Part shown: positions 27,187 to 54,661 of the stretch, piece by piece
How the letters are laid out: every line of letters begins with the position of its first letter
Numbering within the stretch: position 1 is the stretch's first letter
NCBI GenBank assembly: GCA_902763905.1
Contig: CACWUA010000001.1
Location: 66,291 to 130,290, forward strand
Reading direction: 5' to 3'
Length of the DNA stretch: 64,000 bases
Source of the DNA: an uncultured Pseudomonadota bacterium
GTDB taxonomy: Bacteria; Pseudomonadota; Alphaproteobacteria; RF32; CAG-239
Program-made: the position numbers and the translations under genes
The notes under the pieces: model-generated
Databases searched by the model: none
What the model was told of the DNA's origin: nothing
What the model saw: only the letters and a program-made list of their open reading frames with translations

Positions 27187-27194
27187 CTTTTTAG

Positions 27195-32810: not shown

Positions 32811-33776
32811 ATGGCACGTATTAATGATGAATTTTATTCAGATATATACATCACACCTGATAAACAAGTATTTGTTCCGGATCCGCGCACGGAAAACGGC
32901 TTAAAACAAATAATGCCGGATGATTTTGACGTTTTTTATGATTTATTGGAACGCTCATTTACCGGCCGTTCCAGCTATTCCATAACTTATGAAGACTTTT
33001 TCTTCCGTGTGGAGCGTACCGTTTCAATGTATGGCGTTTTGTTTTGTATGCGTAAAATGCCGAAAAAGGTGCCGGATTTGACGGCTTTGGGCTATCCTCC
33101 GGCATTGATTAATTATTTGGCTACGCTCGGCAATGCTTCGGGGCTTATTTTGCTTGGCGGAGCTACCGGTTCCGGTAAAACCACGACCGTATCCAGTTTG
33201 TTGCGTGAATATTTAATCCGCAACGGAGGATTTGCATACACCATTGAAGACCCGTTTGAAATGCCGCTTGATGGCGAATATAGAGCGATGAACGGTTCTA
33301 TCGGAATGTGTAAACAAACTCAGCCGATAAACGATGACTGGGGAGCTTCGTTGCGCTCGGCATTGCGCTCGCGTCCGCGTTATATTTTGGTGGGCGAAAT
33401 TCGTACTCCGGCAACCGCCAGTGAATGTTTGCGTGCCGCTACTTCCGGACACTTGGTGTTATCTACAATTCACGCCAACAACGTTGCCGATGCCATTGAT
33501 GCCATAGTTAAGCATGCTTCCGCCGGAGAAATGAGTGAGGAATTAGCCTTCGACTTACTCTCACGCGGTATTTTGGGCGTTTTACACCAGCAACTCATAG
33601 GAGCAGGTAAAAAGCGTCCGGTGGTGCAATTCCTTTTTGCCAATCCGATTACTACTCAAGGCGATCAAACACGTAATATTATCAAAACCGGTAAAATTAA
33701 TTTGGCCACCACTATTGAAATGCAGATGACGCGTATGAGACAAGGTCGTCCATTGTTCGACGCTCCGGAAAATTAA
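32811..33776 (+). CDS. PilT/PilU-family hexameric ATPase (possible pilus retraction ATPase)
   Basis: Start at MARINDEF after AAGGAGAAAAAAA. FRVERTVSMYGVLFCMRKMPKKVPDLTALGYP, Walker A GGATGSGKTTT, IEDPFE, Walker B/Asp box ILVGEIR, His box SGHLVLSTIHANN. Confidence 0.8.
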   Translation: MARINDEFYSDIYITPDKQVFVPDPRTENGLKQIMPDDFDVFYDLLERSFTGRSSYSITYEDFFFRVERTVSMYGVLFCMRKMPKKVPDLTALGYPPALINYLATLGNASGLILLGGATGSGKTTTVSSLLREYLIRNGGFAYTIEDPFEMPLDGEYRAMNGSIGMCKQTQPINDDWGASLRSALRSRPRYILVGEIRTPATASECLRAATSGHLVLSTIHANNVADAIDAIVKHASAGEMSEELAFDLLSRGILGVLHQQLIGAGKKRPVVQFLFANPITTQGDQTRNIIKTGKINLATTIEMQMTRMRQGRPLFDAPEN

Positions 33777-33810
33777 ATGTTATCTTGGAGATATGTAATA
33801 CTACCGGTTT

Positions 33811-34362
33811 TTACCGAAAAGTCCATATAACAGTGTTGCTGCCGGATATACATTTATTGCGAGTGGCATAACTTGCTATCGGCAGCGGATTTTTCTCGTC
33901 TCCCCAAGCAAATTCGGTGCGTCCTTCATCATTGACAATAGTGATTTTCTGCAGTCCCAACTGCTGTTTCTTATCTATCGGCAATTCACTTAAATTGATG
34001 CAAGCCGACTTGCTTAGTCTATTTAGAGCAATGTCAAAACTGTTATCGTTGGGCATGGAAACATCACCTTGAGTACCTTGACCTACATGCCACGTATAAT
34101 CGGTACATTTCAGCAATACTTTATCAATCAGCGAGGCTTCTTTTGCCAGATTATCGGATAATTTCCAATAACTCGGCTGATCACGATAATAGTTGCGAAT
34201 ATTGTCGGCGGTGCGGCAAATTGCTGCGTGCAAATCTCGATGCGGGTTATGAAATAAAACATAACTCAAAGTGATGATGGCAAACAACAGACACAAGGCA
34301 ATTATCACACCGTTAAAGCCTTGTTTTCGAAGTTTATTAAAGTTTAAATATATCTTATCCAT
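33811..34362 (-). CDS. Pilin-like protein in the prepilin (R64 PilS / BfpA / TcpA) position
   Basis: Start set at MDKIYLNFNKLRKQG-FNGVIIALCLLFAIITLSYVLF (ATG 34362, 1 nt after the upstream stop). It has a charged leader ending in Gly, a roughly 22-aa hydrophobic helix, and a C-terminal Cys pair. No Glu at +5. Confidence 0.45.
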   Translation of the reverse strand: MDKIYLNFNKLRKQGFNGVIIALCLLFAIITLSYVLFHNPHRDLHAAICRTADNIRNYYRDQPSYWKLSDNLAKEASLIDKVLLKCTDYTWHVGQGTQGDVSMPNDNSFDIALNRLSKSACINLSELPIDKKQQLGLQKITIVNDEGRTEFAWGDEKNPLPIASYATRNKCISGSNTVIWTFR

Positions 34363-34363
34363 C

Positions 34364-35488
34364 TTAAGATTTACCCATAGAACTGGTAATTTGATCCTGC
34401 ATGTCGAATGTACCGAACACCGCCCAAGCAATAATACCCGAAACAAACAACATAGCAATAATGTTCATCACCTCGGCTTTTTGCTCAATTAAATATACGG
34501 ATTCCTCCAGCCATTCATTAGCCAATTTATCCAAAGCTTCTTCAAAATTATCCAATTCGGAATAAACTTTCAAATCGGAAATAATTTGTTTATCCGGAAA
34601 TTCGTGCTTTGCTTTAGACAATGCTTGTCCTAGGTTGTCACCGTTTTTAATATGAAACAATGCACCGTCAATGCGTTCGCGCAAATAACGGCTGGCATCT
34701 TTACGCAGAGACGTAAGCGCGACCGACACCGGAACTCCGCCTTTAACCAGTGCGGAAAGTGCTAACAACCATGTAATACCGGTAAATATTTTATATAGCG
34801 ACCATGGCGGAAATCTATCAAATTTTACTCTGATTTTACCGGTCCAGACTCCGATGGTAAAATAAATGGTTGCGCCGATTATCGGCAAAATTGCGAATGC
34901 AAGTACCCAGTTTTTCTGAATCCATTCCGAAAGATTGACGAGTGAACGCGCCGTACCTGTCCATATAGTATTCGGAGCGGCACTCAGCATCGGCGGCACC
35001 ATATATACACCGATAGCATACAAAATCAGCACAGCCATCATCATTAAAAATGAAGGGTAGGCAATAGCGCTGACAATCGGACGAATCATGCGCGAGGAAC
35101 CTTCTGATACTTTAATAAGGTTGAGCAATGCACTTTCCAAATCGGAAACATCACCAACCGAAAGCATCAAACGCTCACGATCCGGAGCCCAACCTTTGAG
35201 GGCATCTGAAAACGGATGACCTTCTTGCAATGAGCGCCCCCAAGAGCTGATGGCGATTGCCATCGGATCATTTGGGTGTGAACCTTCCTCGGAAACACCG
35301 CTGTAAATCATATCAAGCGAGTTCATCAATGAAAACCGGTTGCGTAAAAGAGCTGCTAATTTACGATATATTTTAAGCCTGCCTTTATTTGACATATTGC
35401 ACATAAATTTTGCATATGTCAGCATCCACTTGTTTGTGGTTCCCATAGCGGCTCGACTGAAAGCACTTCTCTTTTTAATCTCCGGCAT
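34364..35488 (-). CDS. Type II/IV secretion platform protein (T2SS-F / PilC family; R64 PilR-like)
   Basis: 374 aa, three TM segments, duplicated T2SS-F-like helical modules (LRNRFSLMNSLDMIY... and HIKNGDNLGQALSKA...). Confidence 0.75.
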   Translation of the reverse strand: MPEIKKRSAFSRAAMGTTNKWMLTYAKFMCNMSNKGRLKIYRKLAALLRNRFSLMNSLDMIYSGVSEEGSHPNDPMAIAISSWGRSLQEGHPFSDALKGWAPDRERLMLSVGDVSDLESALLNLIKVSEGSSRMIRPIVSAIAYPSFLMMMAVLILYAIGVYMVPPMLSAAPNTIWTGTARSLVNLSEWIQKNWVLAFAILPIIGATIYFTIGVWTGKIRVKFDRFPPWSLYKIFTGITWLLALSALVKGGVPVSVALTSLRKDASRYLRERIDGALFHIKNGDNLGQALSKAKHEFPDKQIISDLKVYSELDNFEEALDKLANEWLEESVYLIEQKAEVMNIIAMLFVSGIIAWAVFGTFDMQDQITSSMGKS

Positions 35489-35501
35489 TTTACACTATCT
35501 C

Positions 35502-37256
35502 CTAATAAATCGGCCGTTGATCCAACAATCCGCACCAACGCTCAACCTCGTCCAAATCGATATACCCTTTAAGCATTCGTTCGATTGCTGCCTCACGTAG
35601 CGGCCGTCCGTTTAATTCGCTTACCCAATAATCAATGGCATCTTTGGTTTCACCTTTTATCATCAGCTGCAAAAAATGCGCATCAGGCAAAATAATCTCC
35701 GGCACCGACATGCGACCTATAACTCCTTTATGATCACAGAATTTGCATCCCGGACCGCGTACAAAAGTATTATCAACGCCATATTCACCCAACGCTGTTT
35801 CCAAACGTTTAAATGACGGATCAGACATTCTTTTTTTCACCGGTACGCGGCAATGCGGACATATTTTACGGAACAAACGCTGTGAAATAAGACCTTTCAT
35901 AATCTCCGGATCTTCCAACATATAAGATTGTACGCCCATATCACGCAAACGCGTAATAATTGCCGGAGCGGAGTTCGCATGCAATGTAGACCACACACTG
36001 TGGCCGGAAAGTGCACCTCTGAACACAAGTGTCGCGGCAGAAAGCGTACGAATTTCGCCGACCATAATCACGTCCGGATCAGAACGCAATGCCGCCGATA
36101 GCGCTTTGTTGAAAGCATCATCTTTTTCTTCTTCGGTGCTGGCATTGGTAACCGGCATTTGTCTTGCCCCCGGGATCGGGTACTCCGGCGGATCTTCCAC
36201 CGTGATAACGTTTATTTCATTATTGTGCTCTTGCAGCAGCTTAATCATATTGCGTTGCAGCGTAGTAGACTTACCGGAACCTGTCGGACCGGCAATAATC
36301 TTCAGACCGGTTGCACTGGCACGGAGACGATAGAATAAATCTATTTCTCTATCTCCCAAACCAAGCGAACGTAAGTCACCGTCACCATTAGGATTGTCAT
36401 CGGCGTATAACAGACGCATAACCAAATATTGTGAACCGAATGCCACCGGATTAAATTGTAAACGAATAGCCAGAATATTGTGTGGTAAGCGTAGCTTTCC
36501 ATTGGTACCGCGCAAAGGCGTTGAACCTAATTTTTGCGCGCCTTGGAACTCATTTTGCGCATAGTTTGCGTCGGAAATATCCGCTGAAGCGAATGCCGCA
36601 CGCACAAAAGCCTCTCCCCATTCTTTAGAATATTCCAGTTCTCGTTCCATCATACCGCTTGAGCGAAAATAAACAATGGTCGAATTACCTACAATAACAT
36701 GAATATCCGATACTTTGTGGATGGCTGCGCGGCTTATCACACTCAAGAAGTCAATCTGCATCTGGTAATCGGATGTTTCTTCCGCCGAAATATTGACTTG
36801 GCCTGTTCCGCGTTCGGCAAACGCATAAATTGCCGAAAGCTCGGCAGTTGAAATATAACGAGGATCCGATATAGGTATTTTGCGGCGACGTGCGGTTGCC
36901 GTAAAGTTCAATACTTTACCGTCAAAACGGTGTGATTCGTCAACAAGATAAGTTCCGTCCGAAAACAATGCCAACATACGGCGTGTTTCGGAATCTACAA
37001 CGATTTCGCCATTTTCAAGCGTCAGCAACCGGTTGTCATTTGCAAACAGGTGGCGGAACGAAGTTTGGGCATCTTCGGTATTATCTTTGCCGGATACACT
37101 GCTGTCTTCAATATCAGACAGCGCTTGAGAAACTTCATTTTTCTCTTCATTTGATTTTGTTAGGGGTTCCGATGATTTGCCGACAGGAAGCTTATCGACA
37201 GTAATAACTGCCGATAAGTCATCTTTTTTATTCATTGTCTGAACATCATCTGCCAT
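35502..37256 (-). CDS. Type IV pilus assembly ATPase (GspE/PilB family; R64 PilQ / BfpD / TcpT-like)
   Basis: Walker A GPTGSGKST, ITVEDPPEY, Walker B PDVIMVGEIR, His box GHSVWSTLHAN, tetracysteine CPHC...CKFC. Confidence 0.9.
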   Translation of the reverse strand: MADDVQTMNKKDDLSAVITVDKLPVGKSSEPLTKSNEEKNEVSQALSDIEDSSVSGKDNTEDAQTSFRHLFANDNRLLTLENGEIVVDSETRRMLALFSDGTYLVDESHRFDGKVLNFTATARRRKIPISDPRYISTAELSAIYAFAERGTGQVNISAEETSDYQMQIDFLSVISRAAIHKVSDIHVIVGNSTIVYFRSSGMMERELEYSKEWGEAFVRAAFASADISDANYAQNEFQGAQKLGSTPLRGTNGKLRLPHNILAIRLQFNPVAFGSQYLVMRLLYADDNPNGDGDLRSLGLGDREIDLFYRLRASATGLKIIAGPTGSGKSTTLQRNMIKLLQEHNNEINVITVEDPPEYPIPGARQMPVTNASTEEEKDDAFNKALSAALRSDPDVIMVGEIRTLSAATLVFRGALSGHSVWSTLHANSAPAIITRLRDMGVQSYMLEDPEIMKGLISQRLFRKICPHCRVPVKKRMSDPSFKRLETALGEYGVDNTFVRGPGCKFCDHKGVIGRMSVPEIILPDAHFLQLMIKGETKDAIDYWVSELNGRPLREAAIERMLKGYIDLDEVERWCGLLDQRPIY

Positions 37257-37289
37257 GGTGTTTATCCGCCATTTACAAAATATTTGTTT

Positions 37290-39011
37290 TTATCTTACAA
37301 ACATTCCGCGGCCGAATGAAGGAGCCCCTACGTGAGGTGATGTCGGAGTGGAAGAACCTTGCGGTTGATCATCTTTTTTCGACTGTTTTTTACTCTTACT
37401 GTCTGCCTTAGGTTTTGTTTGTTTTCTGATTTTTTTTGACTTCTTGACCGGTTCTCCGTTTACGGTAGTTTCTTCATAAACAACTTCGGTAGAATCTTCT
37501 TTCGAAGCCGTCGATAAGAGCTCTCCTGTACCTCCGAAAGTAGCTTCAGGCTCAAATTCCATAACGGTATTACCTGTATACAGATAACTGTTCACACCTT
37601 TATTTTCAAACAAAATGTACTGATCGGTGATATCGATTACTTCTTCACCGTTTTTCAATTTGGAACCCTTATGAACGATAAATACTTTGCCCTCGGTGTT
37701 GATAATCTTGGCAACAATATCATCGCCTTGTCCGGTAATATCCATAATGGCATACTGCTTAGACATATCAACATCGCTCTTATCCGGTCCGTTTTTGATA
37801 TCACCTTCCTTAAACGGATTGGTGTTCTGGGCTTCTTTGGCTTCTTTGAGCTTCTTACGACTTTCGAGAAGAGCACGGTTCAAATCATTGATTGTTCCTT
37901 CCAACTCTTCTATTTTTTTCTTAAAGTCAGATATGACTTTCTCATGAGCCTTAACTACGGCAACTGCATGTTCACGAGTCTTTTGAATTTCACTGTCAAT
38001 ACTTGTCATCTTGGTTTTAAAGGTTTCAATCAAGTCAACACGCTCGTTTTCAAGTTCTTTGATTCTGCCTTGCAGTTTAGCGCTTTTTTCAACCCACTTT
38101 TGATTCATCATCAACATTTCGTTCATATAATCGTTGATGACTTTTCCTTGTCTGAGTTTTTCAAGCTCCATTTCTTTTTCTTTAAGTTTACGCTCTTCTT
38201 CCAAAATTTTGGCTTTACGCTCGGCTTCGGCTTTTAATCTTTCTTCTTCCAACTGCATTTTGGCTCGTCGTGTAGCTTCAATAATAGCCAAACTCTTCTG
38301 GCGTTCTTCCAACACCTTGGTTCTCAATTCCTCACGTTTCTTTTCAAGTTGCAAGAGAGTTGCTTCTTTTTCGATATGCGACATTTGATTGAACAGGTTG
38401 TTGTCAACCTTAGATAAAATGGCATTACCAAACTTTTCCAGCGGCGATTTCGGCGCATCAGCTTCAGGTAACGACGGATCTAATTCCTTAAGTTCATCGA
38501 AGCCGGCATCCAAAGCCGCATCACTCAGCGGATTTTCTTCTCCGGAATCATCAGTCGGCAATTTCAAACCGGCCGGATCCGCCCCCTCGGCTGATTGTGC
38601 CGACATATCGGCAGCATCAATCAACGGCTTGTCATTACTTAAGAAATCTTCAGGAGATTGCTCATTTAAAAATTCCAAATTATCATTGGTAGCTTCCGGA
38701 GCTGTAACCTGTAATTCGCCGGTCTGTGCATCAGGATTGGCAATTACATCCTGCACTGTTTCGGCCGCATTCTGAACATTTTGCACTGTATCATCTATTG
38801 TCTCTACAGTCTGATTGACATTATCGGCAACATCTTTCGCTGCAGTCGAAACACTTTCAGTGGCACTTGCTAGCGGTTGAATCATTCCATCAACCGGATT
38901 CGCCGGAACGGCATTTTCTTCCGCGGCATAACCTGCATGACTGATTGCCAGCGTAAACATAAAAGCTAACGCAATAACCGCTACGGCTCTGTTTTTAAGA
39001 TTATAATTCAT
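37290..39011 (-). CDS. PilP-like pilus biogenesis protein with long coiled-coil/acidic extension
   Basis: Signal peptide ...ISHAGYA. Acidic region, then a Lys/Glu coiled coil of about 200 aa. YAIMDITGQGDDIVAKIINTEGKVFIVHKGSKLKNGEEVIDITDQYILFE resembles the PilP beta-domain. Basic tail. Confidence 0.45.
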   Translation of the reverse strand: MNYNLKNRAVAVIALAFMFTLAISHAGYAAEENAVPANPVDGMIQPLASATESVSTAAKDVADNVNQTVETIDDTVQNVQNAAETVQDVIANPDAQTGELQVTAPEATNDNLEFLNEQSPEDFLSNDKPLIDAADMSAQSAEGADPAGLKLPTDDSGEENPLSDAALDAGFDELKELDPSLPEADAPKSPLEKFGNAILSKVDNNLFNQMSHIEKEATLLQLEKKREELRTKVLEERQKSLAIIEATRRAKMQLEEERLKAEAERKAKILEEERKLKEKEMELEKLRQGKVINDYMNEMLMMNQKWVEKSAKLQGRIKELENERVDLIETFKTKMTSIDSEIQKTREHAVAVVKAHEKVISDFKKKIEELEGTINDLNRALLESRKKLKEAKEAQNTNPFKEGDIKNGPDKSDVDMSKQYAIMDITGQGDDIVAKIINTEGKVFIVHKGSKLKNGEEVIDITDQYILFENKGVNSYLYTGNTVMEFEPEATFGGTGELLSTASKEDSTEVVYEETTVNGEPVKKSKKIRKQTKPKADSKSKKQSKKDDQPQGSSTPTSPHVGAPSFGRGMFVR

Positions 39012-40266
39012 AAATTTCTCCTTTATAAGTCCACTTTGCGTCGTTAGAGTGAATATTGTATATTATACTTTTAATCGATAAGCCTGAAAATTTCATTAAC
39101 AATCCGATCCATTCCAACGGATCATTATTCGAAGTAATGGTAAATTCCAACAGCTGATATTTAGTACCGCGCGGCGACACCCAAGATATCGGATTAAGCA
39201 TAATCTGCGAATTGAATTGTTGCAAGTCCAAAGCCTGATTGATATCGTTAATGGTATTAATTAAGTCGTCTTCCGTATATTCCGGCGGTGAATTAAATGT
39301 TTTTGGCTTTTCAATCGGGGTGGTTACAATAATCTCATTGCCATCTTTTCCTAAAGCACGAGATGTAAATTCTACACCGGAAACGTCAAGAGCCTGCTCA
39401 ATCCAAGTCAGACGGCCGTGTACACGTGTCCACGAAGTAACAATACCTGAATTCGGATTGCAAGCAATTTGCCCCAACACCCATCCCGGAGTAACCACTT
39501 GAACCACTTTTTGAACACCGGCATAGCAGCTGCGCATTACATCTACCGGATTATTCATATCCTCCCATGGTTTAGGCTCCGGCGGCAATTCCGCCTGCTC
39601 GGCCTGTTCAATCGGAGCGATAATCGGTGCACTTGGCGCAGAGAAGAATAAATCTTTCAACGTGGAATATGCAAACCACAAAATAATGGCAAAACAAACC
39701 ACGATAACCGCCAACATAATAGTATCATTGCTGGCATCAATCTTGTCTAACTTAACCTGCAAACCTCGATTTAACAGCGGTTCTATTTCTGCCGATTTGG
39801 TATCTTCTATTGCCCATTCTGCCGGAGCAAAGATAGCATCCCAATCAGGTACTGCCAACATTGAAATAAACTGATTTTTGGCATCACGCTCACTTATAAA
39901 CAAAGTATCGCCGTCGGAAAGGATAACATCGTTTCTGTAACAAATATACCACCAACCGGTATCAACCTTAAATACTCCCAGAAACGATGTAACGTTTCCA
40001 AGTCCGGAAATCAAGGCAATGGCAGCCGAAGGCAGCCCTTTGGTAAAGCCTTGTGAAGAGGCCGCCAAACCGAATTGTGCGGATTTTCCTTTACGCGTAA
40101 CATAAAGATCCGCTCCTTCCATAATATTCTCGGCCGCTTCTTTTACTTCCGGCAAAGGCTTGTCTTCATTCAACAACGGCTGCCAGAACAGGCTTGCTGC
40201 ATAAGTAGTGCCTCCGCTGTTGAATGTCGCTTTCCATGCCTTTTCTTCAGTTTGCGTATCGTCCAC
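39001..40266 (-). CDS. Bitopic membrane protein in the R64 PilO / BfpC-like position
   Basis: 421 aa with a single central TM (IMLAVIVVCFAIILWFAYSTL). Assigned from size and position between the secretin and the PilP-like gene only. Confidence 0.4.
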   Translation of the reverse strand: MDDTQTEEKAWKATFNSGGTTYAASLFWQPLLNEDKPLPEVKEAAENIMEGADLYVTRKGKSAQFGLAASSQGFTKGLPSAAIALISGLGNVTSFLGVFKVDTGWWYICYRNDVILSDGDTLFISERDAKNQFISMLAVPDWDAIFAPAEWAIEDTKSAEIEPLLNRGLQVKLDKIDASNDTIMLAVIVVCFAIILWFAYSTLKDLFFSAPSAPIIAPIEQAEQAELPPEPKPWEDMNNPVDVMRSCYAGVQKVVQVVTPGWVLGQIACNPNSGIVTSWTRVHGRLTWIEQALDVSGVEFTSRALGKDGNEIIVTTPIEKPKTFNSPPEYTEDDLINTINDINQALDLQQFNSQIMLNPISWVSPRGTKYQLLEFTITSNNDPLEWIGLLMKFSGLSIKSIIYNIHSNDAKWTYKGEIYEL

Positions 40267-40285
40267 TGGTTTTCTCCCTCAAAAA

Positions 40286-41902
40286 TTAATCGCTCATTCT
40301 GGATTCCGGAGATAATGGCGTTTCCAAAACCACAGGGGTTAACATAATAACGAATACCGAACGACCTTTTTGCGATTCGTTTTTTCCGCCCAGCAACATG
40401 TTGTCAGCAGTTCCGGTTCCTTGCTTCTCAACCGTATCTTGCAATTTTTCGTATCCGGTAAGCACCATCGTTTGTCCTGATTTAAGAGCGATTTCTTGTG
40501 TGAAACCGCGTGTTTCGATTACCGGCATCATCAACGGCGGTTGATTGAATGCGTACTGAATAGGCTCATCATCTACCTTTTCAGACAAAGTAAGATTAAA
40601 GAACACCATCAAACGCCCATGATCCAAAATCCTTGGTAAAACACTCATCATAAAGCCGGTTGTATAGCTTTCTACGTCAGTAGAACTGTCATTATTGTCG
40701 CTACCGGTGGAAGTTGAAGTGGTTGACATATTTTTATTATAGTACCCAACGCGCGTAACCTGAATCGGTGCCGGCTTGTTGTTCATAGTGGTTACTGTAC
40801 CGCTGGTTACGAGTTTTCCCTTGGAATCTTCTGAAATAGCTCTGATTGCAGCATCTATATTCCAATCTTTTGAAGATATCAGCATCGACAGTCCGCCGCC
40901 GCTGATACCTGAGGTATTCTCGATTGCGGAAATACTTTCGATGGAGCCTCTGCCATTTTTACCACCGAAACGCAACTTATTTAAGTCAAAGCCATATTTA
41001 TCACTACTGCCGAGGTCAACCATAAATACTTTAACGCTAATGGCAACTTGCTTTGATAAACGGACATTTTGTTCGTTAATAAATTTGGAAATGCGGCGAA
41101 TGTTAGCCGGTGTGTCGGTAACCGTAATCGTACCGCTGGCGCGATTGATACTGACTGTGCCGTCTCCGGTAGTCATAGTACTTAAAGTTTCTTCAATTTG
41201 CGACCATAAATCAATATTATCAACGGTGTTTTGTTGCTGAATTGAAGAGTTGCCGCTGGCTCCATCGCCATCGCCGCCTTCACCGGAAACATCAATCGTA
41301 ACGTTTAGTGTCGGATTGGTTGGTAGGCTATATAATACAAAGGTCTTAGTGGTGTAGCGGTAGAAATAAATTTCATTCTTTTCATATTTCCACCATACCC
41401 CGAAACGATTGGCTACCTCATCCAACAAGCCGCTGATAGGGCCTTTGTAGTTCACGAGCATTTTGGTTGAATCTGTCCATTGTACACCGATATCCTCCAA
41501 TGACGGCTCATTTTCATCGGCCGCATCTTTAATCCCATCTTCTTCCAATTCCGGAGCATAACGCACGGATAAAGAGGTGATTTTGTTAATCATGGAACCG
41601 ATTTCGAACAATGTAATCGGACGATTGCTGATAAGCGTGATACCGTCTTTGGCTTCCAAATACGCCGGAATCGGCTCTCCTTCAAATTCTACATTGGAAG
41701 AATCTCCGAGCCAGATATCGTTCTTAACCCGCACCACATCGTCAGGTACCGGAGTGTCTGGTACCGAAGCCTGTTGATGCAGGGCAGTGGCATCATGAGC
41801 TGCTTGTGTTATATCTTCGTCCATTTGCGGCGAGAAAGAACAGGCCACCGTAATTCCCAAAATACCAAGAGCAGTTATCTTAAACAAATTAGTCATACGC
41901 AT
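40286..41902 (-). CDS. Lipoprotein secretin of type IVb pilus systems (R64 PilN / BfpB / TcpC-like)
   Basis: Lipobox GITVAC. C-terminal secretin core (...SVLPRILDHGRLMVFFNLTLSE...PVIETRGFTQEIALKSGQTMVLTGYE...LLGGKNESQKGRSVFVIMLTPVVL). Start among M 41923/41902/41896 is uncertain. Confidence 0.85.
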   Translation of the reverse strand: MRMTNLFKITALGILGITVACSFSPQMDEDITQAAHDATALHQQASVPDTPVPDDVVRVKNDIWLGDSSNVEFEGEPIPAYLEAKDGITLISNRPITLFEIGSMINKITSLSVRYAPELEEDGIKDAADENEPSLEDIGVQWTDSTKMLVNYKGPISGLLDEVANRFGVWWKYEKNEIYFYRYTTKTFVLYSLPTNPTLNVTIDVSGEGGDGDGASGNSSIQQQNTVDNIDLWSQIEETLSTMTTGDGTVSINRASGTITVTDTPANIRRISKFINEQNVRLSKQVAISVKVFMVDLGSSDKYGFDLNKLRFGGKNGRGSIESISAIENTSGISGGGLSMLISSKDWNIDAAIRAISEDSKGKLVTSGTVTTMNNKPAPIQVTRVGYYNKNMSTTSTSTGSDNNDSSTDVESYTTGFMMSVLPRILDHGRLMVFFNLTLSEKVDDEPIQYAFNQPPLMMPVIETRGFTQEIALKSGQTMVLTGYEKLQDTVEKQGTGTADNMLLGGKNESQKGRSVFVIMLTPVVLETPLSPESRMSD

Positions 41903-42617
41903 TTTCGTCCTCCATTGTTTCAATTACCAGAACACGATTACCTTTATAAAAAGTTGCAACCGGTGCCGGCTTTGCGCGAGCAAAAGCTCTGACCAACGCA
42001 GATGCCACATCGGCAAAATTGCCGCGGAACATTGCGCCTGCGTTCAGCGTATAATTACGATTTGTTTTCCAAATCAGCCGCCAACCGGCTTCTTCGCTCC
42101 ACTGAACCAATAAATCTTTCAAACTTTGACCTTCCTCGGCCAACCAATCCTTATTCGGGTTGTCATCCTGCGGCTCTTCCGGTACTTCTGTGATTTCCGG
42201 CATTTCTTGTGCAATTGCGGCCGGCGGTGTACCCGTTACTTCCGCTTCATATTCAATCACTTCGTCATTGATACTCGGCATAATTGTTGCAGAAATGTTA
42301 TTACCGGCTGCGGCCTGCGTAATACGATGATCGCGCGGGGATCTTTCTCCGTAAGCGCGGAAATCGGCTTGAGTTCGAGTGTAATTTACGTTTGTATTGT
42401 CTGTGCATTCGCTGTATCCGGCAGCATTTTCCACGCACACCGCCGTATATTCATTATTGCTGGTGCAAATACCATCGCGGCACTGTTCTTCCGGATAGTT
42501 CTGAATATTGCCTTGCGGTGCCGAGCTGATACAACCGACTGTGCTTAAAATACAACATACCAAGCCGGTAATCATAAATTTATTAATCATTGTTTTTCTC
42601 TCAATATTTTGTTTCAT
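41889..42617 (-). CDS. Lipoprotein with PilL/TcpQ-like C-terminal domain
   Basis: Lipobox STVGC. C-terminus GQSLKDLLVQWSEEAGWRLIWKTNRNYTLNAGAMFRGNFADVASALVRAF resembles the TcpQ/PilL domain. Lies immediately upstream of the secretin, as in R64 and ICE pil clusters. Confidence 0.5.
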   Translation of the reverse strand: MKQNIERKTMINKFMITGLVCCILSTVGCISSAPQGNIQNYPEEQCRDGICTSNNEYTAVCVENAAGYSECTDNTNVNYTRTQADFRAYGERSPRDHRITQAAAGNNISATIMPSINDEVIEYEAEVTGTPPAAIAQEMPEITEVPEEPQDDNPNKDWLAEEGQSLKDLLVQWSEEAGWRLIWKTNRNYTLNAGAMFRGNFADVASALVRAFARAKPAPVATFYKGNRVLVIETMEDENAYD

Positions 42618-42656
42618 CGTATTTTCCTATAATACAGGTTAAAACAGGATAGCACC

Positions 42657-44315
42657 TCAATTCCAAGGGTTATCGAAGTGTTTTGTCGCTTCTACCCGTT
42701 GTTCGTCGGTGACATATCGTACATTCCTAATAATAAAAGAGTTTGGCTCTCTGTCAGTAAACATTATATTAACTTTTTGCGGTTCTACACCGTTGTCGGC
42801 CAATATTTTGTACAGCAGCTTTAATCTTTTCTGCTGCACTTCGTATGATGCCGAACGATCAACCCGAATTTCTACCACAATGTTCTCATCGCTGACGGCA
42901 TTGTCGGCAAAAGCGTGCAACCAATCCAGCGTCTGTCCCGAAATTTCGGCGCGATTCGGCTGAAAAGATAATTTAAGTTCGGTCGGTACAATATTTTTAT
43001 CATCGCTGTTGCCAAGCAATCGCTGAAAAATAGAACTGTGTTTTTCTTTTGAGCCTTTTTTCGCTTTCGGAGCTGATTTTTTCTCATCGGATCCGGTTAC
43101 TTTGCTGCGCACACCATCAAACCATGCAGCTACATTATCCGAAAGTTTTTTGGAGGTCTCAGCATCTTCTTCGGAAGTTTCGGAATTTGCGTCGCTGTCA
43201 AAATCTTTTTCATCATCAATGCTTTGAATAGTGCTTTCGGTGCGTTTGTTCTGCTTGACAGGCTTATTGGAAATTCTTTCTTCCGGCTTTAATTCCGGCA
43301 GTTGACGCTCATCACGCAGTCTTTGCTCCAACTCCAGATTCTTTTTAGATGTGGAAAACTGCGGTGTCAGATTATCGTCATTCAAAATATCTTCCGGAAT
43401 CGGAATAAGGATATTCGGCTGCAATTTATATGCCACTTGTTTATCATCTGAAGTTTCGGCATCCGGCAGTGTAACATCTTGCTGCAACGGTTCGCTTTTA
43501 ACCCCGTAGGTATTTTTGTTAATGTGTTTGTTGGCGGTTTCGGCCACATTCCACGGATCATCGGTAGTATTTTGTGATATTTCCGTATTACTTTTATTAC
43601 TTTCCGCCTGATTCTCGGCAACTTCTTCCACGCTGCCTGCTGCCAGCGGTTCGGTAACGTCTGCCGTGCTTTCTGTTCCCAAATTATAAATACTGACATT
43701 CTGCGAAGCCAAAGCTATCCTGCCGTTATCAGCCTCGTCCGAAACCGAAACAACACCGTTTTCAATCTTATAGTTATGTTTTAGTGGAATAGCAAAATCG
43801 ACAGCTGTCGCGGCATCGGCAATTTGCAATTCTTCATCTTGATTGTTTCCGCTGTCGGCAATTTGCAACTGTGTATCGGCAACAGCAGTACTTTCGGTAA
43901 GAGCCGATGCCAAAATTTCATCTTCGGCACTTCCGGCATAATTTTCATCACCTTTTATCCAATTGCCGGAATCATCAGAAGCATACAAGATTTCATCAGA
44001 ACCGGCAGCAACATCACCTGAGGCTGTGTCTGCAACGGTAATCTTTGGTTGAATTGCGGCGCTTGCACCGAGAGGAGCCTCGGCGGCTGATAACTTTTTA
44101 TATTTTTCATAAATCGGGTCATTTTCTTCGTTGGCCGCAAATAATTCAATATTTTTGGCGGCAACATTCTGCACACTTAATTCCTCTTGCTGTCTAGCCA
44201 TCGACAGTACCAAATACGCTTTCGTTGCAATAAACACCGCTACCAACGAAAGAAAGAAACTACCGATAAAATATTTCAAATTCAATCTTTGCATTTTAAA
44301 ATCCTGTAGAATCAA
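42657..44315 (-). CDS. Membrane-anchored protein with degenerate OmpA/MotB-like C-terminal domain; first gene of the pilus operon
   Basis: N-terminal TM (YFIGSFFLSLVAVFIATKAYLVL) and a long acidic/low-complexity middle. The C-terminal LKLSFQPNRAEISGQTLDWLHAF...VVEIRVDRSASYEVQQKRLKLLYKILADNGVEPQKVNI follows the OmpA_C spacing pattern. Confidence 0.45.
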   Translation of the reverse strand: MILQDFKMQRLNLKYFIGSFFLSLVAVFIATKAYLVLSMARQQEELSVQNVAAKNIELFAANEENDPIYEKYKKLSAAEAPLGASAAIQPKITVADTASGDVAAGSDEILYASDDSGNWIKGDENYAGSAEDEILASALTESTAVADTQLQIADSGNNQDEELQIADAATAVDFAIPLKHNYKIENGVVSVSDEADNGRIALASQNVSIYNLGTESTADVTEPLAAGSVEEVAENQAESNKSNTEISQNTTDDPWNVAETANKHINKNTYGVKSEPLQQDVTLPDAETSDDKQVAYKLQPNILIPIPEDILNDDNLTPQFSTSKKNLELEQRLRDERQLPELKPEERISNKPVKQNKRTESTIQSIDDEKDFDSDANSETSEEDAETSKKLSDNVAAWFDGVRSKVTGSDEKKSAPKAKKGSKEKHSSIFQRLLGNSDDKNIVPTELKLSFQPNRAEISGQTLDWLHAFADNAVSDENIVVEIRVDRSASYEVQQKRLKLLYKILADNGVEPQKVNIMFTDREPNSFIIRNVRYVTDEQRVEATKHFDNPWN

Positions 44316-44748
44316 CGAATAAAGCCGTTTTCAGGCGGCAATTATCCCACTCTTTTGGTTGAAGATACAACAAATAACGTTAAAATACAGTTAATGTGCA
44401 AAATAAATAATAATCCGCATTATTTTGCCGCAAGGATGCATGGAGACGTGCAAGATTATCATCTGTGCAAGAATGGCAGCACAGAAAACAATTTCGGCAA
44501 AGTCGTTTACCGGTGCTAAATAAAATCGCAAATGACGGCATTGGTTCATAAAAATAAGTCTTTACGATTTATTTACAAATATAGAATATTATAGATTGCG
44601 TATATTTATAATACACACAATGCATATGCAGAATAAAGGTCGATTGCCGACTTAAAGATTGTAACAAAAAATTCATAAAAAACTTGTACGATTTTGAAAA
44701 AAAGTGTGTTATTATAAAAGTGTGGATAATAGAAATAGGAGAAAAAAC

Positions 44749-45093
44749 ATGAAATTCTTGAAAAATAATATTTGCACCATCTTGGCAATGACTTTTATTT
44801 TTTCAGCGGCTATGATAGGTGATGCTTCAGCGGCTTCTTCGGTGTTCGATACCGCTATCAGTAAATTATCTAAGTTGTTTAAGGATACGAAAAGTGTTTT
44901 GTTCGTAATCGGCGGTTTTGGTTTGGTGGCATTGGCCTTCCAAGCTATTTTCGGCAAGCTGAAATGGGCATGGTTTGCCGCTTTGGCTCTGGGTTTGGCA
45001 GTTGTGGCCGCAGCCGGTAAAGTTGTTGACTATGCGGTTTCTTCAAACGACGGTGGCACAGTTACCAGTACTAACTACGACGACTCATTGTAA
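44749..45093 (+). CDS. virB2: VirB2/TrbC-type T4SS pilin, paralog 1
   Basis: AGGAGAAAAAAC RBS. Signal peptide ...MIGDASA-AS. Two hydrophobic helices separated by FGKLKW, roughly 85-aa mature length. First gene of the plus-strand operon. Confidence 0.75.
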   Translation: MKFLKNNICTILAMTFIFSAAMIGDASAASSVFDTAISKLSKLFKDTKSVLFVIGGFGLVALAFQAIFGKLKWAWFAALALGLAVVAAAGKVVDYAVSSNDGGTVTSTNYDDSL

Positions 45094-45173
45094 TATATTG
45101 CTGCCAAAAGTATAATTCAATCGCAAGGGAGAGAGAAATTTCTTTCTCCCTCGGGTTGAAGAAAGGAGGAATT

Positions 45174-45530
45174 ATGTTGTACAGAAAAATAAAGGATTTT
45201 CTTTATAAAAACCGCTATACAATAGCTATGGTGCTTTCTTTATTTTTGTATACAACGGAAACATTTGCCGCTACCGGCGATACCGGCAATTTCAGCGCTT
45301 TGATTATATCCGGTAAAACAATGTTCTCCGGTTTGCGCAAAGTTATTTATCCGGCGGCTACCATCGGTATAGCCAGTGTTTGCATCGGTGGTATGTTTGG
45401 CAGTTTTAACTGGAAGTGGCTGATTGCAATCATGCTCGGAGTTTTTGTTATTGCTTTTGCCGAGCAGGTGGGTGCACTCGCCACCGGTTCTGAAATGGAC
45501 ATGGAAGCCAATATGAATGGTAACGGTTAG
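45174..45530 (+). CDS. virB2: VirB2/TrbC-type T4SS pilin, paralog 2
   Basis: AAAGGAGGA RBS before ATG 45174. Signal ...TTETFA-AT. Two hydrophobic helices separated by FGSFNWKW. Confidence 0.7.
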   Translation: MLYRKIKDFLYKNRYTIAMVLSLFLYTTETFAATGDTGNFSALIISGKTMFSGLRKVIYPAATIGIASVCIGGMFGSFNWKWLIAIMLGVFVIAFAEQVGALATGSEMDMEANMNGNG

Positions 45531-45539
45531 GAGATGAAA

Positions 45540-45914
45540 ATGTTGCAGATGCGTTTTTTTGCTTTACTTTTCTTAGTGGTTTGCGGTGGCGTTTCCGATG
45601 CCTTTGCCGACAGCGATATATTTGTGCAATTGGCCGATAAAGCCACCACTATCGGTTTAGGGCTGCGCAACAGCGGATATATGATTGCCGGAATGGGCTT
45701 GGTTGTATTTTCTGTTATGGCCATTTTTAACAAAATATCGTGGAAAAATCTGGCATATATTATGTTGAGCTGCTTTTTGCTCAGTATTATGTTTGCGGCC
45801 GTTAACTATGTTGCCGAGGGAGGAAAAAACATTCCTGAACTGCAATATGACAGCTCGGGTTCCGAAGCCGGTAGTGTGCCGGGTGATGCCACCAAGGTTC
45901 CGGTAACAAAATAA
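45540..45914 (+). CDS. virB2: VirB2/TrbC-type T4SS pilin, paralog 3
   Basis: Signal ...GGVSDAFA-DS. Two hydrophobic helices separated by FNKISWKN. Same architecture as the two preceding genes. Confidence 0.7.
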   Translation: MLQMRFFALLFLVVCGGVSDAFADSDIFVQLADKATTIGLGLRNSGYMIAGMGLVVFSVMAIFNKISWKNLAYIMLSCFLLSIMFAAVNYVAEGGKNIPELQYDSSGSEAGSVPGDATKVPVTK

Positions 45915-45933
45915 CAATCGGAGATATCGCTGA

Positions 45934-49019: not shown

Positions 49020-49100
49020 AACTTAAATTTAACAAAAATGTCATACAAAGCGGCGAAAAAATATGGTAGAATAAAGTAATAGGAATTATAGGAGGCAATC

Positions 49101-49808: not shown

Positions 49809-49828
49809 AATAACGGGAGACGGGACTG

Positions 49829-50617: not shown

Positions 50618-50645
50618 AATATCATAGTGGAAAAGGAAATGTACA

Positions 50646-52202: not shown

Positions 52203-52232
52203 TGTATGGAACGGCAACGGAAGGAGGATAGG

Positions 52233-54648: not shown

Positions 54649-54661
54649 GGATTAGGAGGAA

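What the first reader, a model, noticed from the sequence alone, without database searches (positions are those of the whole stretch)
32811..44315. R64/Bfp/Tcp-style type IVb pilus operon placed back-to-back with a VirB-type (not Dot/Icm- or GI-type) T4SS
Minus-strand gene order:
- OmpA-like anchored protein;
- PilL/TcpQ-like lipoprotein;
- lipoprotein secretin;
- PilO-sized bitopic protein;
- PilP-like protein;
- GspE-type ATPase;
- T2SS-F platform protein;
- pilin-like protein.

This reproduces the pilL-N-O-P-Q-R-S order of the IncI1 (R64) thin-pilus cluster and of ICE pil clusters. A convergent PilT-family ATPase (32811-33776) suggests a retractile pilus, as with BfpF.

In the systems I know, such thin-pilus clusters accompany IncI T4BSS (Tra/Trb, Dot/Icm-like) or genomic-island (MPF-G) conjugation systems. 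Here the partner is a VirB/Trb-like system, transcribed divergently from a shared 430-bp AT-rich control region.

No prepilin peptidase, PilV-type adhesin, shufflon recombinase or lytic transglycosylase is present in the window.
Basis: partly seen in the sequence, partly recalled or inferred. Interest (0 to 1): 0.65.

Follow-up and report, generated by a model that had tools for sequence, protein, structure and literature searches.

The report
Chromosomal type IVb pilus beside T4SS
This is a real, intact type IVb pilus assembly operon fixed in the core chromosome of uncultured gut and rumen Alphaproteobacteria, back to back with a VirB-type secretion system. The pairing itself is not new, because IncI2 plasmids have it, but this lineage-wide, non-conjugative version with pilin genes scattered around the genome appears undescribed.

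Summary
Eight co-directional minus-strand genes (33811-44294) encode a type IVb pilus (T4bP) machine:
- a MotB/OmpA-like anchored protein;
- a TcpQ/BfpG-like lipoprotein;
- a PilN/BfpB secretin;
- PilO;
- a 573-aa protein with a PilP/GspC-HR fold;
- a BfpD-like ATPase;
- a GspF-type platform protein;
- a pilin-domain protein.

A PilT-type ATPase lies convergent to them.

1. T4bP with a VirB-type T4SS is already known. IncI2 plasmid R721 is typed MPF_T and interleaves pil and virB genes.
2. The operon's "pilin" has no prepilin signal. The genome holds eight canonical PilS/bundlin-type pilins, a 1390-aa pilin-headed protein and an A24 prepilin peptidase at other loci.
3. In distant relatives, canonical pilins and PilT sit inside the operon.

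The locus is not a mobile element. Its flanks are housekeeping genes and the two relaxase families searched were not found in the genome. The secretin is present in 215 of 219 high-quality genomes of the order. VirB4 was present in all 91 sampled. Three independent genera lost both systems together.

Most likely this is a retractile adhesion pilus that works with the T4SS in cell contact. That coupling is inferred, not shown. It is a new variant of a known kind, of moderate interest.

The parts
32811..33776 (+). PilT-type (retraction-type) hexameric ATPase, 321 aa, convergent with the pil operon
   Evidence: TIGR01420 pilT_fam 5e-36. Best solved relatives are PilT (2gsz, 5.6e-22). It is 34% identical (8e-33) to the ATPase in the Thalassospira plasmid T4bP cluster, against 2e-7 to VirB11 proteins. 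It is co-directional after the pilins in loci L064-L078. The C-terminal QTRNIIKTGK resembles the PilT AIRNLIRE motif (read from the sequence; the motif is from memory). A 53%-identical paralogue lies at C40:13030-13986.
33811..34365 (-). Pilin-domain protein without a prepilin (class III) signal: basic N-terminus, one membrane helix, then a PilS-like globular domain
   Evidence: PilS PF08805 5e-4 over the C-terminal part. In 69 orthologues neither G(-1) nor E(+5) is conserved, while the motifs NIRxYYRxxPxYWxLS and C..NT..WTF are conserved. Its C-terminus aligns to the canonical pilin on contig C3 (E 0.002).
34364..35488 (-). PilR/BfpE-like inner-membrane platform protein (GspF family)
   Evidence: T2SSF PF00482 1.7e-25, two stretches. 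67-100% identical across the 80 loci.
35502..37256 (-). PilQ/BfpD-like assembly ATPase (GspE family) with a CxxC...CxxC zinc motif
   Evidence: T2SSE 9e-66. BfpD 8dze 2.2e-88 over residues 65-576, against GspE at 1e-49. CPHC and CKFC are read from the sequence. It is the only assembly-type ATPase in the genome.
37290..39011 (-). Giant PilP-like protein: signal peptide, acidic region, long coiled coil, C-terminal PilP/GspC-HR beta domain, lysine-rich tail
   Evidence: AF2 of residues 392-500 gives a core pLDDT of about 89-93. The top 16 Foldseek hits are all PilP, GspC-HR, GspB, LspC or a Dot/Icm core chain. Example: 3oss_C, TM 0.77, rmsd 1.6 over 60 columns; E-values run from 4e-3 to 0.3. hhalign places the same region on the C-terminus of R721 PilP at P 0.02. 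Pfam, NCBIfam and PDB sequence searches found nothing.
39001..40266 (-). PilO (type 4b PilO2-like) bitopic inner-membrane protein
   Evidence: PAP_PilO PF06864 2.4e-19 over the full length.
40286..41923 (-). PilN/BfpB-type lipoprotein secretin (outer-membrane pore)
   Evidence: TIGR02520 9e-78 at 262 bits (cut-off 287.65). MshL scores 110, GspD 47 and PilQ 45 bits. BfpB 9u5s_A 7.4e-53 over residues 61-537. Lipobox-like ITVAC is read from the sequence. It is the only PF00263 secretin in the genome.
41889..42617 (-). TcpQ/PilL/BfpG-like lipoprotein, partner of the secretin
   Evidence: TcpQ PF10671 3.2e-17. It matches the lipoprotein chain of the BfpB complex, 9u5s_R, at 1.4e-14. Lipobox-like STVGC is read from the sequence.
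42657..44294 (-). First gene of the operon: membrane-anchored protein with a long acidic linker and a C-terminal MotB/Pal/OmpA-like domain (probable peptidoglycan anchor)
   Evidence: AF2 of the last 121 residues gives pLDDT 81.8. Foldseek finds MotB, Pal, OmpA-C and OprF-C at E 7e-6 to 1e-3, probability 1.0. No sequence-level match in Pfam, NCBIfam or PDB. Conserved in 68 loci.
44295..44749 (.). Divergent 455-bp AT-rich spacer between the pil operon and the VirB-type T4SS operon
   Evidence: 31% GC against 41% for the window. One block near the pil side is conserved (ATTAACTGTATTTTAACGTTATT, unique in the genome). A separate block near the T4SS side is also conserved, and the middle is variable.
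44750..64000 (+). Partner VirB-type T4SS operon. It holds three VirB2/TrbC genes, a VirB3-like gene, VirB4 split in this assembly, large unassigned ORFs, two VirB8 genes and a VirB9-like gene. It runs off the contig.
   Evidence: VirB4 is 810-830 aa and intact in 89 of 91 relatives. VirB11 is present in all 15 same-genus relatives, roughly 35 kb from the pil operon where I checked.

Best explanation
The stretch encodes the machinery of a type IVb pilus that is a vertically inherited core trait of an order of uncultured gut and rumen Alphaproteobacteria with 1.2-2 Mb genomes. The record titles of relatives ('Azospirillum sp.', Candidatus Scatocola) suggest to me GTDB order RF32. That name is my inference; no tool gave it.

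**Proposed assembly (by analogy with Bfp, R64 Pil and PilP/GspC systems)**
- The PilR platform and the BfpD-like PilQ ATPase polymerise pilins in the inner membrane.
- PilO and the giant coiled-coil PilP-like protein bridge to the N-terminal domains of the PilN secretin.
- The secretin sits in the outer membrane together with the TcpQ/BfpG-like lipoprotein.
- The first gene product ties the complex to peptidoglycan through its MotB/OmpA-like domain.

**Subunits**
- The filament subunits are not the operon's own pilin-domain protein. That protein has no prepilin signal and probably stays in the membrane as a base or primer.
- The subunits are eight PilS/bundlin-family pilins with short leaders (MKxNxxG|RSMIEMLGVLAIIG). 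A 1390-aa pilin-headed protein is a likely tip or adhesin subunit.
- All of these lie at other loci and would be cut by an unlinked A24 peptidase.
- Two PilT-type ATPases make the pilus retractile.

**Role**
- The pilus most likely grips a partner cell or surface in the gut.
- By retracting, it would bring that partner within reach of the neighbouring enlarged VirB-type T4SS. This parallels the way the IncI2 thin pilus stabilises mating pairs for its VirB-type channel, but here without DNA-transfer genes.

**What is shown and what is inferred**
- Shown: gene identities, folds, conservation, co-occurrence.
- Inferred: filament assembly from the dispersed pilins, retraction, and functional coupling to the T4SS.
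For: **Type IVb class**
- T4b-specific matches for the secretin, its partner, PilO, the ATPase and the pilins.
- Folds of the two unassigned proteins.

**Sole machine of its kind**
- One assembly ATPase and one secretin in the genome.
- The A24 peptidase lies at C5:59683-60390.

**Pilins**
- Eight canonical pilins plus a giant one. PilS scores 3.4e-21 and Bundlin 1e-10.
- In 13 more distant species, 1-3 such pilins sit directly after the signal-less gene. In eight of them PilT follows on the same strand.

**Conservation**
- Operon order is kept in 80 of 80 loci. The divergent T4SS is present in most loci that reach far enough.
- The secretin is present in 271 of 283 genomes of the order: 215 of 219 high-quality genomes and 23 of 24 genera.
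- The same divergent layout occurs in two other alphaproteobacterial families.

**Core chromosome, not a mobile element**
- Housekeeping flanks, no tRNA, and no relaxase of the two families searched.

**Link to the T4SS**
- VirB4 is present in 91 of 91 sampled high-quality genomes.
- Three high-quality genomes from three genera lack PilN, PilQ and VirB4 together. One lacks only the pilus.
- Fisher exact test on [[91,0],[1,3]] gives p = 2.9e-5 (my arithmetic).

**Precedent**
- An IncI2 thin pilus is needed for transfer in the gut (PMC7508951).
Against: - No expression or imaging data.
- The pilins have short, T4a-like leaders and R at +1, which is atypical for T4b. Their assignment to this machine rests on exclusivity and on synteny in relatives.
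- Co-loss of the pilus and the T4SS can result from one deletion, because the two are adjacent.
- One genome keeps the T4SS without the pilus, so the T4SS does not strictly need the pilus.
- The spacer shows two separate conserved blocks, not one shared operator. No common promoter motif links the dispersed pilins, the PilT genes and the operon.
- In this assembly VirB4 is split. The partner may be defective here, or the MAG consensus may be wrong.
- The PilP-like fold match is modest (best E 4e-3).
Confidence: 0.62

Rival explanations
1. The pilus and the T4SS are functionally independent. Their adjacency is a frozen accident of an ancient acquisition. The pilus serves general adhesion, aggregation or twitching in the gut (as Bfp and Tcp do), with no role in T4SS targeting.
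For: - The two halves have different nearest plasmid relatives. VirB4 is closest to Microvirga pMVF16-3 (44%), whose conjugative module has no T4bP. The secretin is closest to a Thalassospira plasmid whose T4bP sits with DotD/TraH genes.
- About seven loci lack the T4SS within 3 kb upstream, and L080 has it rearranged.
- One genome keeps VirB4 without the pilus.
- The spacer holds separate conserved promoter blocks.
Against: - The divergent layout is kept across an order and in two further families, despite extensive sequence divergence.
- Co-occurrence is 91 of 91, with three independent double losses.
- IncI2 shows that such a pairing can be functional.
Confidence: 0.22
2. The machine is a DNA-uptake (competence) pilus. 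As the only type IV filament system in a reduced genome, it pulls in DNA that ComEC then imports.
For: - An intact ComEC gene at C3:48802-49638, 2.7e-64.
- PilT-type retraction ATPases are present.
- It is the sole T4P-like machine.
Against: - The same ComEC search hit 11 of the 14 well-known control genomes, E. coli among them, so its presence says little.
- To my knowledge, T4b pili of the Bfp/R64 type are not established DNA-uptake pili.
- ComEA, DprA and a DNA-binding minor pilin were not examined.
- A large repertoire of variable pilins and a 1390-aa pilin-headed protein fit adhesion better.
Confidence: 0.08
3. The pair is a still-active or recently immobilised conjugative element of the IncI2 kind. 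The thin pilus would stabilise mating pairs for DNA transfer.
For: - IncI2 R721 has the same combination of parts.
- The nearest VirB4 relatives sit in modules with a MobA/MobL relaxase and VirD4.
Against: - No PF03432 or PF03389 relaxase anywhere in the 95%-complete genome.
- No integrase or tRNA boundary was found, and the flanks are housekeeping genes.
- GC content is close to that of the rest of the window.
- The locus sits in the same place in about 80 species and in 96% of the order.
- No PilV, shufflon or Rci in the window.
Confidence: 0.05
4. The machine has been converted into a secretion device like a type II system. The signal-less pilin-domain protein would act as a membrane-bound piston or plug, and no long pilus would be made.
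For: - The operon's own pilin homologue has lost the processing signal in all 69 orthologues.
- Known T4b systems secrete proteins: TcpF by Tcp and CofJ by CFA/III (from memory).
Against: - Canonical, well-conserved pilins with an intact G(-1)/E(+5) signal are present, and they lie in-operon in distant relatives.
- A prepilin peptidase is retained.
- PilT-type ATPases are retained.
Confidence: 0.03

Closest known systems
IncI2 plasmid transfer region (R721, NC_002525; also TP114 and mcr-1 IncI2 plasmids)
   Same: A PilL/TcpQ-PilN-PilO-PilP-ATPase-platform-pilin T4bP sits physically joined to a VirB-type (MPF_T) T4SS. The thin pilus serves contact for the T4SS in the gut (PMC7508951).
   Different: - R721 is a plasmid with a MOBP relaxase, VirD4 in the cluster, a PilV adhesin with shufflon recombinase, a prepilin peptidase and lytic transglycosylases in the cluster. 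Its pil and virB genes are interleaved on one strand.
- Here the system is chromosomal. It has no detected relaxase and is arranged divergently. It adds a MotB-like first gene, a 573-aa PilP, PilT-type ATPases, a signal-less pilin paralogue and dispersed pilins.
- Protein identity to R721 is only about 26-34%.
Bundle-forming pilus of enteropathogenic E. coli (BfpB/BfpG secretin complex 9u5s, BfpD 8dze, BfpF, bundlin)
   Same: These are the best solved-structure relatives of the secretin (7e-53), its lipoprotein partner (1.4e-14) and the ATPase (2e-88). The dispersed pilins match Bundlin PF05307. A PilT-type second ATPase is present, as BfpF is in Bfp.
   Different: Bfp is a plasmid virulence operon headed by its pilin, with the peptidase and minor pilins inside the operon and, as far as I know, no T4SS partner. 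It has no MotB-like or giant PilP component that I know of.
IncI1 R64 thin pilus (pilI-pilV) and the PAPI-1/ICE pil clusters
   Same: The gene order L-N-O-P-Q-R-S, and the family assignments PilN (TIGR02520), PAP_PilO and PilS.
   Different: - Those clusters accompany I-type (Dot/Icm-like) or GI-type conjugation systems on mobile elements.
- R64 has no retraction ATPase; its PilT is a transglycosylase (from memory).
- R64 varies its adhesin by a shufflon. Here variety comes from multiple pilin genes.
Thalassospira xiamenensis plasmid NZ_CP004389 T4bP cluster
   Same: It holds the nearest plasmid secretin (28%). Its layout is ATPase, peptidase, TcpQ, PilN, PilO2, a hypothetical gene, ATPase, platform, pilin. 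It contains an orthologue of the PilT-type ATPase (34%, 8e-33).
   Different: It lies on a plasmid beside DotD/TraH-type (I-type) transfer genes. Its peptidase and pilin are in the cluster.

Membership tests
Type IVb pilus (T4bP) | PilN/BfpB/TcpC-type lipoprotein secretin | tested here: met
   TIGR02520 is the best match at 9e-78 (262 bits, slightly under the 287.65 cut-off; 25 relatives pass it). MshL scores 110 and GspD 47 bits. BfpB 7e-53.
Type IVb pilus (T4bP) | TcpQ/BfpG/PilL-type partner lipoprotein and PilO(2)-type bitopic protein | tested here: met
   PF10671 3e-17 and PF06864 2e-19, both above the Pfam cut-offs. 9u5s_R 1.4e-14.
Type IVb pilus (T4bP) | GspE-family assembly ATPase and GspF-family platform protein | tested here: met
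   PF00437 9e-66 and PF00482 1.7e-25. BfpD is the best solved relative at 2e-88.
Type IVb pilus (T4bP) | Type IVb pilin with a class III signal (long leader, large mature protein) next to the machinery | tested here: inconclusive
   The in-operon homologue lacks the signal. PilS/bundlin-family pilins with G(-1)/E(+5) exist at other loci, but their leaders are short at 7-9 aa. They are in-operon in distant relatives.
Type IVb pilus (T4bP) | Prepilin peptidase (A24) | tested here: met
   PF01478 3.7e-16 at C5:59683-60390, unlinked and next to groEL.
Type IVb pilus (T4bP) | A pilus fibre is actually made | not testable with these tools
   Needs EM, cryo-ET or proteomics. The organism is uncultured.
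Conjugative thin pilus of I-complex plasmids (R64 / R721 type) | Carried on a conjugative element with a relaxase and coupling protein | tested here: not met
   No PF03432 or PF03389 relaxase in the genome. Flanks are housekeeping genes with no tRNA. Other relaxase families were not searched.
Conjugative thin pilus of I-complex plasmids (R64 / R721 type) | PilV tip adhesin with shufflon and Rci recombinase | tested here: not met
   None was found among the window genes scanned. The rest of the genome was not searched for Rci. A 1390-aa pilin-headed protein on C3 may be an analogue.
Type II secretion system | GspD secretin with GspC/L/M and pseudopilins GspG-K | tested here: not met
   GspD profile scores 46.8 bits against 262 for PilN. 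No GspL/M or pseudopilin families were hit.
Tad/Flp pilus | CpaF/TadA ATPase, RcpA secretin, Flp pilin | tested here: not met
   The pil-operon proteins gave no Tad- or Flp-specific best hits: TadA TIGR03819 scored only 1e-9 for the assembly ATPase. CpaF structures matched the PilT-type ATPase only at about 1e-6. The regex search for Flp-like G/xxxxEY pilins gave no convincing hit.
MSHA pilus | MshL-type secretin as the best match | tested here: not met
   MshL TIGR02519 scores 110 bits against 262 for PilN.
PilT/PilU retraction ATPases | PilT-family core with a C-terminal AIRNLIRE-like motif, and no zinc-binding CxxC pairs | tested here: met
   TIGR01420 5e-36, though 124.6 bits is below the 319.1 cut-off. 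PilT structures are the best matches. QTRNIIKTGK and the absence of CxxC pairs are read from the sequence. Retraction itself is not testable here.

The most novel reading that the evidence does not exclude
An order-level clade (and some sister families) of reduced-genome gut and rumen Alphaproteobacteria may have domesticated a plasmid-type thin pilus and a VirB-type channel into one obligate contact apparatus. A retractile T4b pilus would display interchangeable pilins and a giant pilin-headed adhesin. It would capture a partner cell (a bacterium, a protist or host epithelium) and reel it onto an enlarged, relaxase-free T4SS that injects effectors. This would define the lifestyle of a common but uncultured gut lineage as contact-dependent: epibiotic, parasitic or predatory. 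The signal-less pilin paralogue would be a new kind of membrane-retained pilus base.
Probability: 0.3. Interest if true: 0.75.

Novelty: new variant of a known kind. Interest (0 to 1): 0.5.

Why it matters
These Alphaproteobacteria are frequent in human, ruminant and other animal gut metagenomes. From memory they have no cultured representative, and two literature searches found no paper describing their pili or secretion systems.

A small genome that keeps about 45 kb or more of linked pilus and T4SS genes in 96% of its species is investing heavily in cell contact. That points to a partner-dependent lifestyle and gives a concrete target for enrichment, imaging and metatranscriptomics.

For pilus biology, the system offers natural variants of known parts:
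- a 573-aa coiled-coil PilP;
- a MotB-like peptidoglycan anchor;
- a pilin paralogue without a prepilin signal;
- T4b-family pilins with T4a-like short leaders.

For plasmid biology, it is a candidate example of a thin pilus paired with a VirB-type channel outside conjugation.

Tried and rejected
1. **PilT-like ATPases replace a missing VirB11: rejected.**
   - This genome has only three T2SSE-family ATPases.
   - All 15 same-genus relatives have a fourth that matches the whole VirB11 model (about 1e-42). In the relatives I checked it lies about 35 kb from the pil ATPase.
   - Contig C1 ends 278 bp after the window, so the gene is simply unassembled here.
2. **A shared regulatory motif: none found.** I compared the regions upstream of the pil operon, the nine dispersed pilin genes, both PilT genes and the peptidase. 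The conserved pil block is unique in the genome.
3. **Sequence-level identification of the 552-aa and 573-aa proteins failed.** Pfam, NCBIfam and PDB profile searches gave nothing useful. Only structure prediction and fold search resolved them.
4. **A single plasmid ancestor for both halves: not supported.**
   - The nearest VirB4 relative (Microvirga) has no T4bP beside it.
   - The nearest secretin relative (Thalassospira) sits with I-type transfer genes.
   - R721 is no closer than the Thalassospira plasmid.
6. **Literature:** searches for RF32 or CAG-239 together with pili or type IV systems returned nothing relevant.
7. **Accession look-ups:** KP347127, AP002527 and MF521836 are not in the plasmid collection.

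Full report
**1. What is there**

The window is C1:66291-130290 of a 1.53-Mb, 71-contig, 95%-complete genome. Relatives found with the pilus ATPase are all uncultured gut or rumen Alphaproteobacteria MAGs: RUG, RGIG and UBA3307 bins, bins labelled 'Azospirillum sp.', and Candidatus Scatocola. From those names I infer GTDB order RF32. No tool gave that name.

Between 33811 and 44294, eight intact, tightly packed minus-strand ORFs form one operon. A ninth ORF (32811-33776, plus strand) converges on its end.

Profile searches assign six of the nine genes directly:
- TcpQ PF10671, 3e-17.
- A secretin whose best model is the type IVb PilN family. TIGR02520 scores 9e-78 at 262 bits; MshL scores 110 bits, GspD 47 and T4a PilQ 45.
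- PAP_PilO, 2e-19.
- T2SSE, 9e-66.
- T2SSF, 1.7e-25.
- PilT family, 5e-36.

Comparison with solved structures gives the same class:
- The secretin matches BfpB over nearly its full length (7e-53), against 7e-5 for T4a PilQ.
- Its neighbour matches the lipoprotein chain of the same complex, 9u5s (1.4e-14). I read that chain as BfpG.
- The ATPase matches BfpD (2e-88), against GspE at 1e-49.

The cluster is therefore a type IVb pilus machine. It is not a T2SS, Tad or MSH system.

**2. The two unassigned genes**

The first gene (42657-44294, 545 aa from the likely ATG start) and the fifth gene (37290-39011, 573 aa) have no Pfam, NCBIfam or PDB sequence match. I aligned orthologues from the related loci and predicted the conserved C-terminal domains.

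*First gene*
- The last 121 residues fold with pLDDT 81.8.
- The model matches MotB, Pal, OmpA-C and OprF-C peptidoglycan-binding domains at E 7e-6 to 1e-3, probability 1.0.

*Fifth gene*
- Residues 392-500 give a six-stranded beta domain with core pLDDT of about 89-93.
- Its 16 best fold matches are all PilP, GspC-HR, GspB, LspC or a Dot/Icm core chain. The best E is 4e-3. The match to 3oss_C has TM 0.77 and rmsd 1.6 over 60 columns.
- hhalign places the same segment on the C-terminus of R721 PilP at P 0.02.
- So it is PilP-like at the fold level. It is also about 3.5 times the size of R721 PilP (164 aa) and carries a long coiled coil and a lysine-rich tail.

**3. The pilin question**

The last operon gene (33811-34365) has only a weak PilS match in its C-terminal half. 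In an alignment of 69 orthologues, the N-terminus is a basic stretch followed by one membrane helix. Neither a glycine at -1 nor a glutamate at +5 is conserved. The following region (NIRxYYRxxPxYWxLS) and the C-terminal C..NT..WTF are conserved. It is a pilin-domain protein without a prepilin signal.

A genome-wide scan for G-x4-E followed by a hydrophobic stretch found:
- Eight genes with the leader MKxNxxG|RSMIEMLGVLAIIGVLSVGG, on contigs C3, C4 (two in tandem), C7, C8, C14, C26 and C33.
- A 1390-aa ORF beginning ...ERG|GLMIEALAMLGLIAVV, at C3:7591-11763.

Of the five pilins scanned against Pfam, four match the type IVb pilin families PilS and Bundlin; the best scores are 3.4e-21 and 1e-10. 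The fifth matched no family.

A 234-aa A24 prepilin peptidase lies at C5:59683-60390, beside groEL.

The genome has only one assembly-type ATPase and one secretin. These pilins therefore have no other machine to use.

Synteny in relatives supports the link:
- In 13 more distant species, one to three such pilin genes lie directly after the signal-less gene on the same strand.
- In eight of them, the PilT-type gene follows co-directionally.
- The likely ancestral operon is anchor - TcpQ - PilN - PilO - PilP - ATPase - platform - signal-less pilin - PilS(n) - PilT.
- In the window's genus, the pilins have been dispersed and PilT inverted.

**4. The PilT-type ATPase**

- Its best solved relatives are PilT proteins; DotB is close behind.
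- It is 34% identical (8e-33) to an ATPase inside the Thalassospira plasmid T4bP cluster.
- It is only weakly similar (2e-7) to R721 VirB11 and to the ATPase in the VirB11 position of Microvirga pMVF16-3.
- A 53%-identical paralogue sits at C40:13030-13986 in an unrelated context.

I considered that these ATPases might substitute for a missing VirB11, because this genome has no VirB11. That idea fails. All 15 same-genus relatives have a fourth ATPase that matches the VirB11 model end to end, about 35 kb from the pil ATPase where I checked. The window's contig simply stops short of it.

**5. Is it a mobile element?**

No.
- The 27 kb upstream of the glycosyltransferase genes, the MsbA-like gene and the pil genes encodes a UvrD-like helicase, MurJ, AnmK, TyrRS, UvrA and an LD-carboxypeptidase.
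- There is no tRNA in the window.
- GC content is close to that of the rest of the window.
- The whole genome has no PF03432 or PF03389 relaxase.
- The operon order is identical in all 80 species-level loci fetched, with ATPase identity from 68% to 98%.
- The PilN-type secretin is found, in single copy and intact, in 271 of 283 genomes of the order. That is 215 of 219 high-quality genomes and 23 of 24 genera.
- Outside the order, 11 of 69 sampled alphaproteobacterial families have such a secretin.
- Two of those families, both with small genomes, carry the same divergent layout: VirB4-B3-B2 | anchor-TcpQ-PilN-PilO-(PilP)-ATPase-platform. There the ATPase is about 60% identical and VirB4 68-69%.
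- The arrangement is therefore older than the order.

**6. The pairing with a VirB-type T4SS**

The plus-strand operon from 44750 begins with three VirB2/TrbC genes, followed by VirB3-like, VirB4, several large unassigned ORFs, two VirB8 genes and a VirB9-like gene.

- PLSDB types the IncI2 plasmid R721 as MPF_T.
- Its annotation shows a TcpQ-family gene and pilM, then virB1-like, VirB2, B3, B4, B8, B9, B10, B11 and the coupling protein, then PilN, PilO2, PilP, ATPase, platform, pilin, transglycosylase, peptidase and PilV. All lie on one strand.
- PMC13700708 names virB1, virB2, virB5, virD4 and pilV on IncI2 plasmids.
- PMC7508951 shows that the IncI2 thin pilus is needed for transfer in the mouse gut.

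What differs here is the context: chromosomal, without a detected relaxase, lineage-wide and divergent.

The two halves also have different nearest plasmid relatives:
- VirB4 is closest to Microvirga pMVF16-3 (44%). That module has a MobA/MobL relaxase, VirB2-B11 and VirD4, and no T4bP.
- The secretin is closest to a Thalassospira plasmid whose T4bP sits with DotD/TraH-type genes.
- R721 is no closer.
- No single donor element is evident.

**7. Evidence for a functional link**

- VirB4 is present in all 91 sampled high-quality genomes of the order. None of the four pilus-negative genomes was in that sample.
- Twelve genomes lack the secretin. Three of these are fragmented assemblies that still have the pilus ATPase and VirB4.
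- Of the four high-quality genomes that truly lack the pilus, three lack VirB4 as well. These are G241, G016 and G154, from three different genera.
- The fourth, G150, keeps VirB4.
- Fisher's exact test on [[91,0],[1,3]] gives p = 2.9e-5.
- This fits joint function. It is confounded by adjacency, since one deletion can remove both systems. G150 shows that the T4SS can persist alone.

The 455-bp spacer (31% GC) contains one block conserved near the pil start and another near the T4SS start, separated by variable sequence. That is an ordinary pair of divergent promoters, not a demonstrated common operator.

**8. Verdict**

The type IVb assignment and the retraction-type ATPase stand. The novelty of the T4bP/VirB pairing does not.
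- The remaining novelty is a chromosomally fixed, order-wide pilus-plus-T4SS locus in an uncultured gut lineage, with several unusual parts: a MotB-like anchor, a giant PilP, a signal-less pilin paralogue, and a dispersed repertoire of short-leader T4b pilins including a 1390-aa one.
- Two literature searches found no description of it.
- Other agents of this scan reached similar readings on sister genomes. I re-derived the main points here independently.

Noticed in passing
window 46661-49019: VirB4 is split into two overlapping ORFs (308 and 481 aa) in this assembly. In 89 of 91 relatives it is one intact ORF of 810-830 aa; only G199 shows a similar truncation. This is either a real frameshift in this organism's T4SS or a consensus error in the MAG.
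   Followed up: partly
genome contig C3:7591-11763 (locus L092:1592-5761): A 1390-aa ORF with a perfect prepilin signal (ERG|GLMIEALAMLGLIAVV) and no Pfam domain in the rest. It is preceded by a 369-aa ORF with an N-terminal membrane helix and no Pfam match. It is a candidate giant pilus-displayed adhesin.
   Followed up: partly
genome contig C40:13030-13986: A second PilT-type ATPase, 53% identical to the one in the window. It sits among unrelated genes: a very large N-terminally anchored protein and several metabolic-enzyme-like ORFs, none of which I scanned against profile libraries. Relatives also carry two such genes.
   Followed up: partly
window 23461-26610: Three adjacent minus-strand ORFs of similar size (367, 329 and 328 aa). 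The first has ankyrin repeats (PF13637, 8e-7). Ankyrin-repeat proteins are common T4SS substrates in host-associated bacteria, and this one lies about 20 kb from the T4SS. Not examined further.
   Followed up: no
window 27001-29500: A low-GC stretch (31-33% against 41%) covers a 738-aa fusion of a GT2 glycosyltransferase with a CDP-glycerol glycerophosphotransferase. Next to it lie a second GT2 gene and an MsbA-like ABC exporter. This looks like a variable surface-polysaccharide or teichoic-acid-like locus. The MsbA-like gene keeps its place beside PilT in many relatives.
   Followed up: no
window 44360-44385 (minus-strand reading ATTAACTGTATTTTAACGTTATT): A 23-nt block about 70-90 nt upstream of the pil operon start is conserved across species and unique in the genome. 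It contains TTAAC twice and the palindrome AACGTT. The regulator is unknown.
   Followed up: partly
genome contig C3:48802-49638: An intact ComEC-family gene (680-aa ORF, 2.7e-64) in this reduced genome. This keeps a DNA-uptake role for the only pilus machine formally open.
   Followed up: no
locus L096 (Microvirga sp. VF16 plasmid pMVF16-3, 671-686 kb): This is the closest plasmid relative of the window's VirB4 (44%). It is a compact module of MobA/MobL, VirB2-B3-B4, VirB8-B9-B10, an ATPase and VirD4, with unusually large VirB9 (550 aa) and VirB10 (590 aa) genes. PLSDB types it as non-mobilizable.
   Followed up: no
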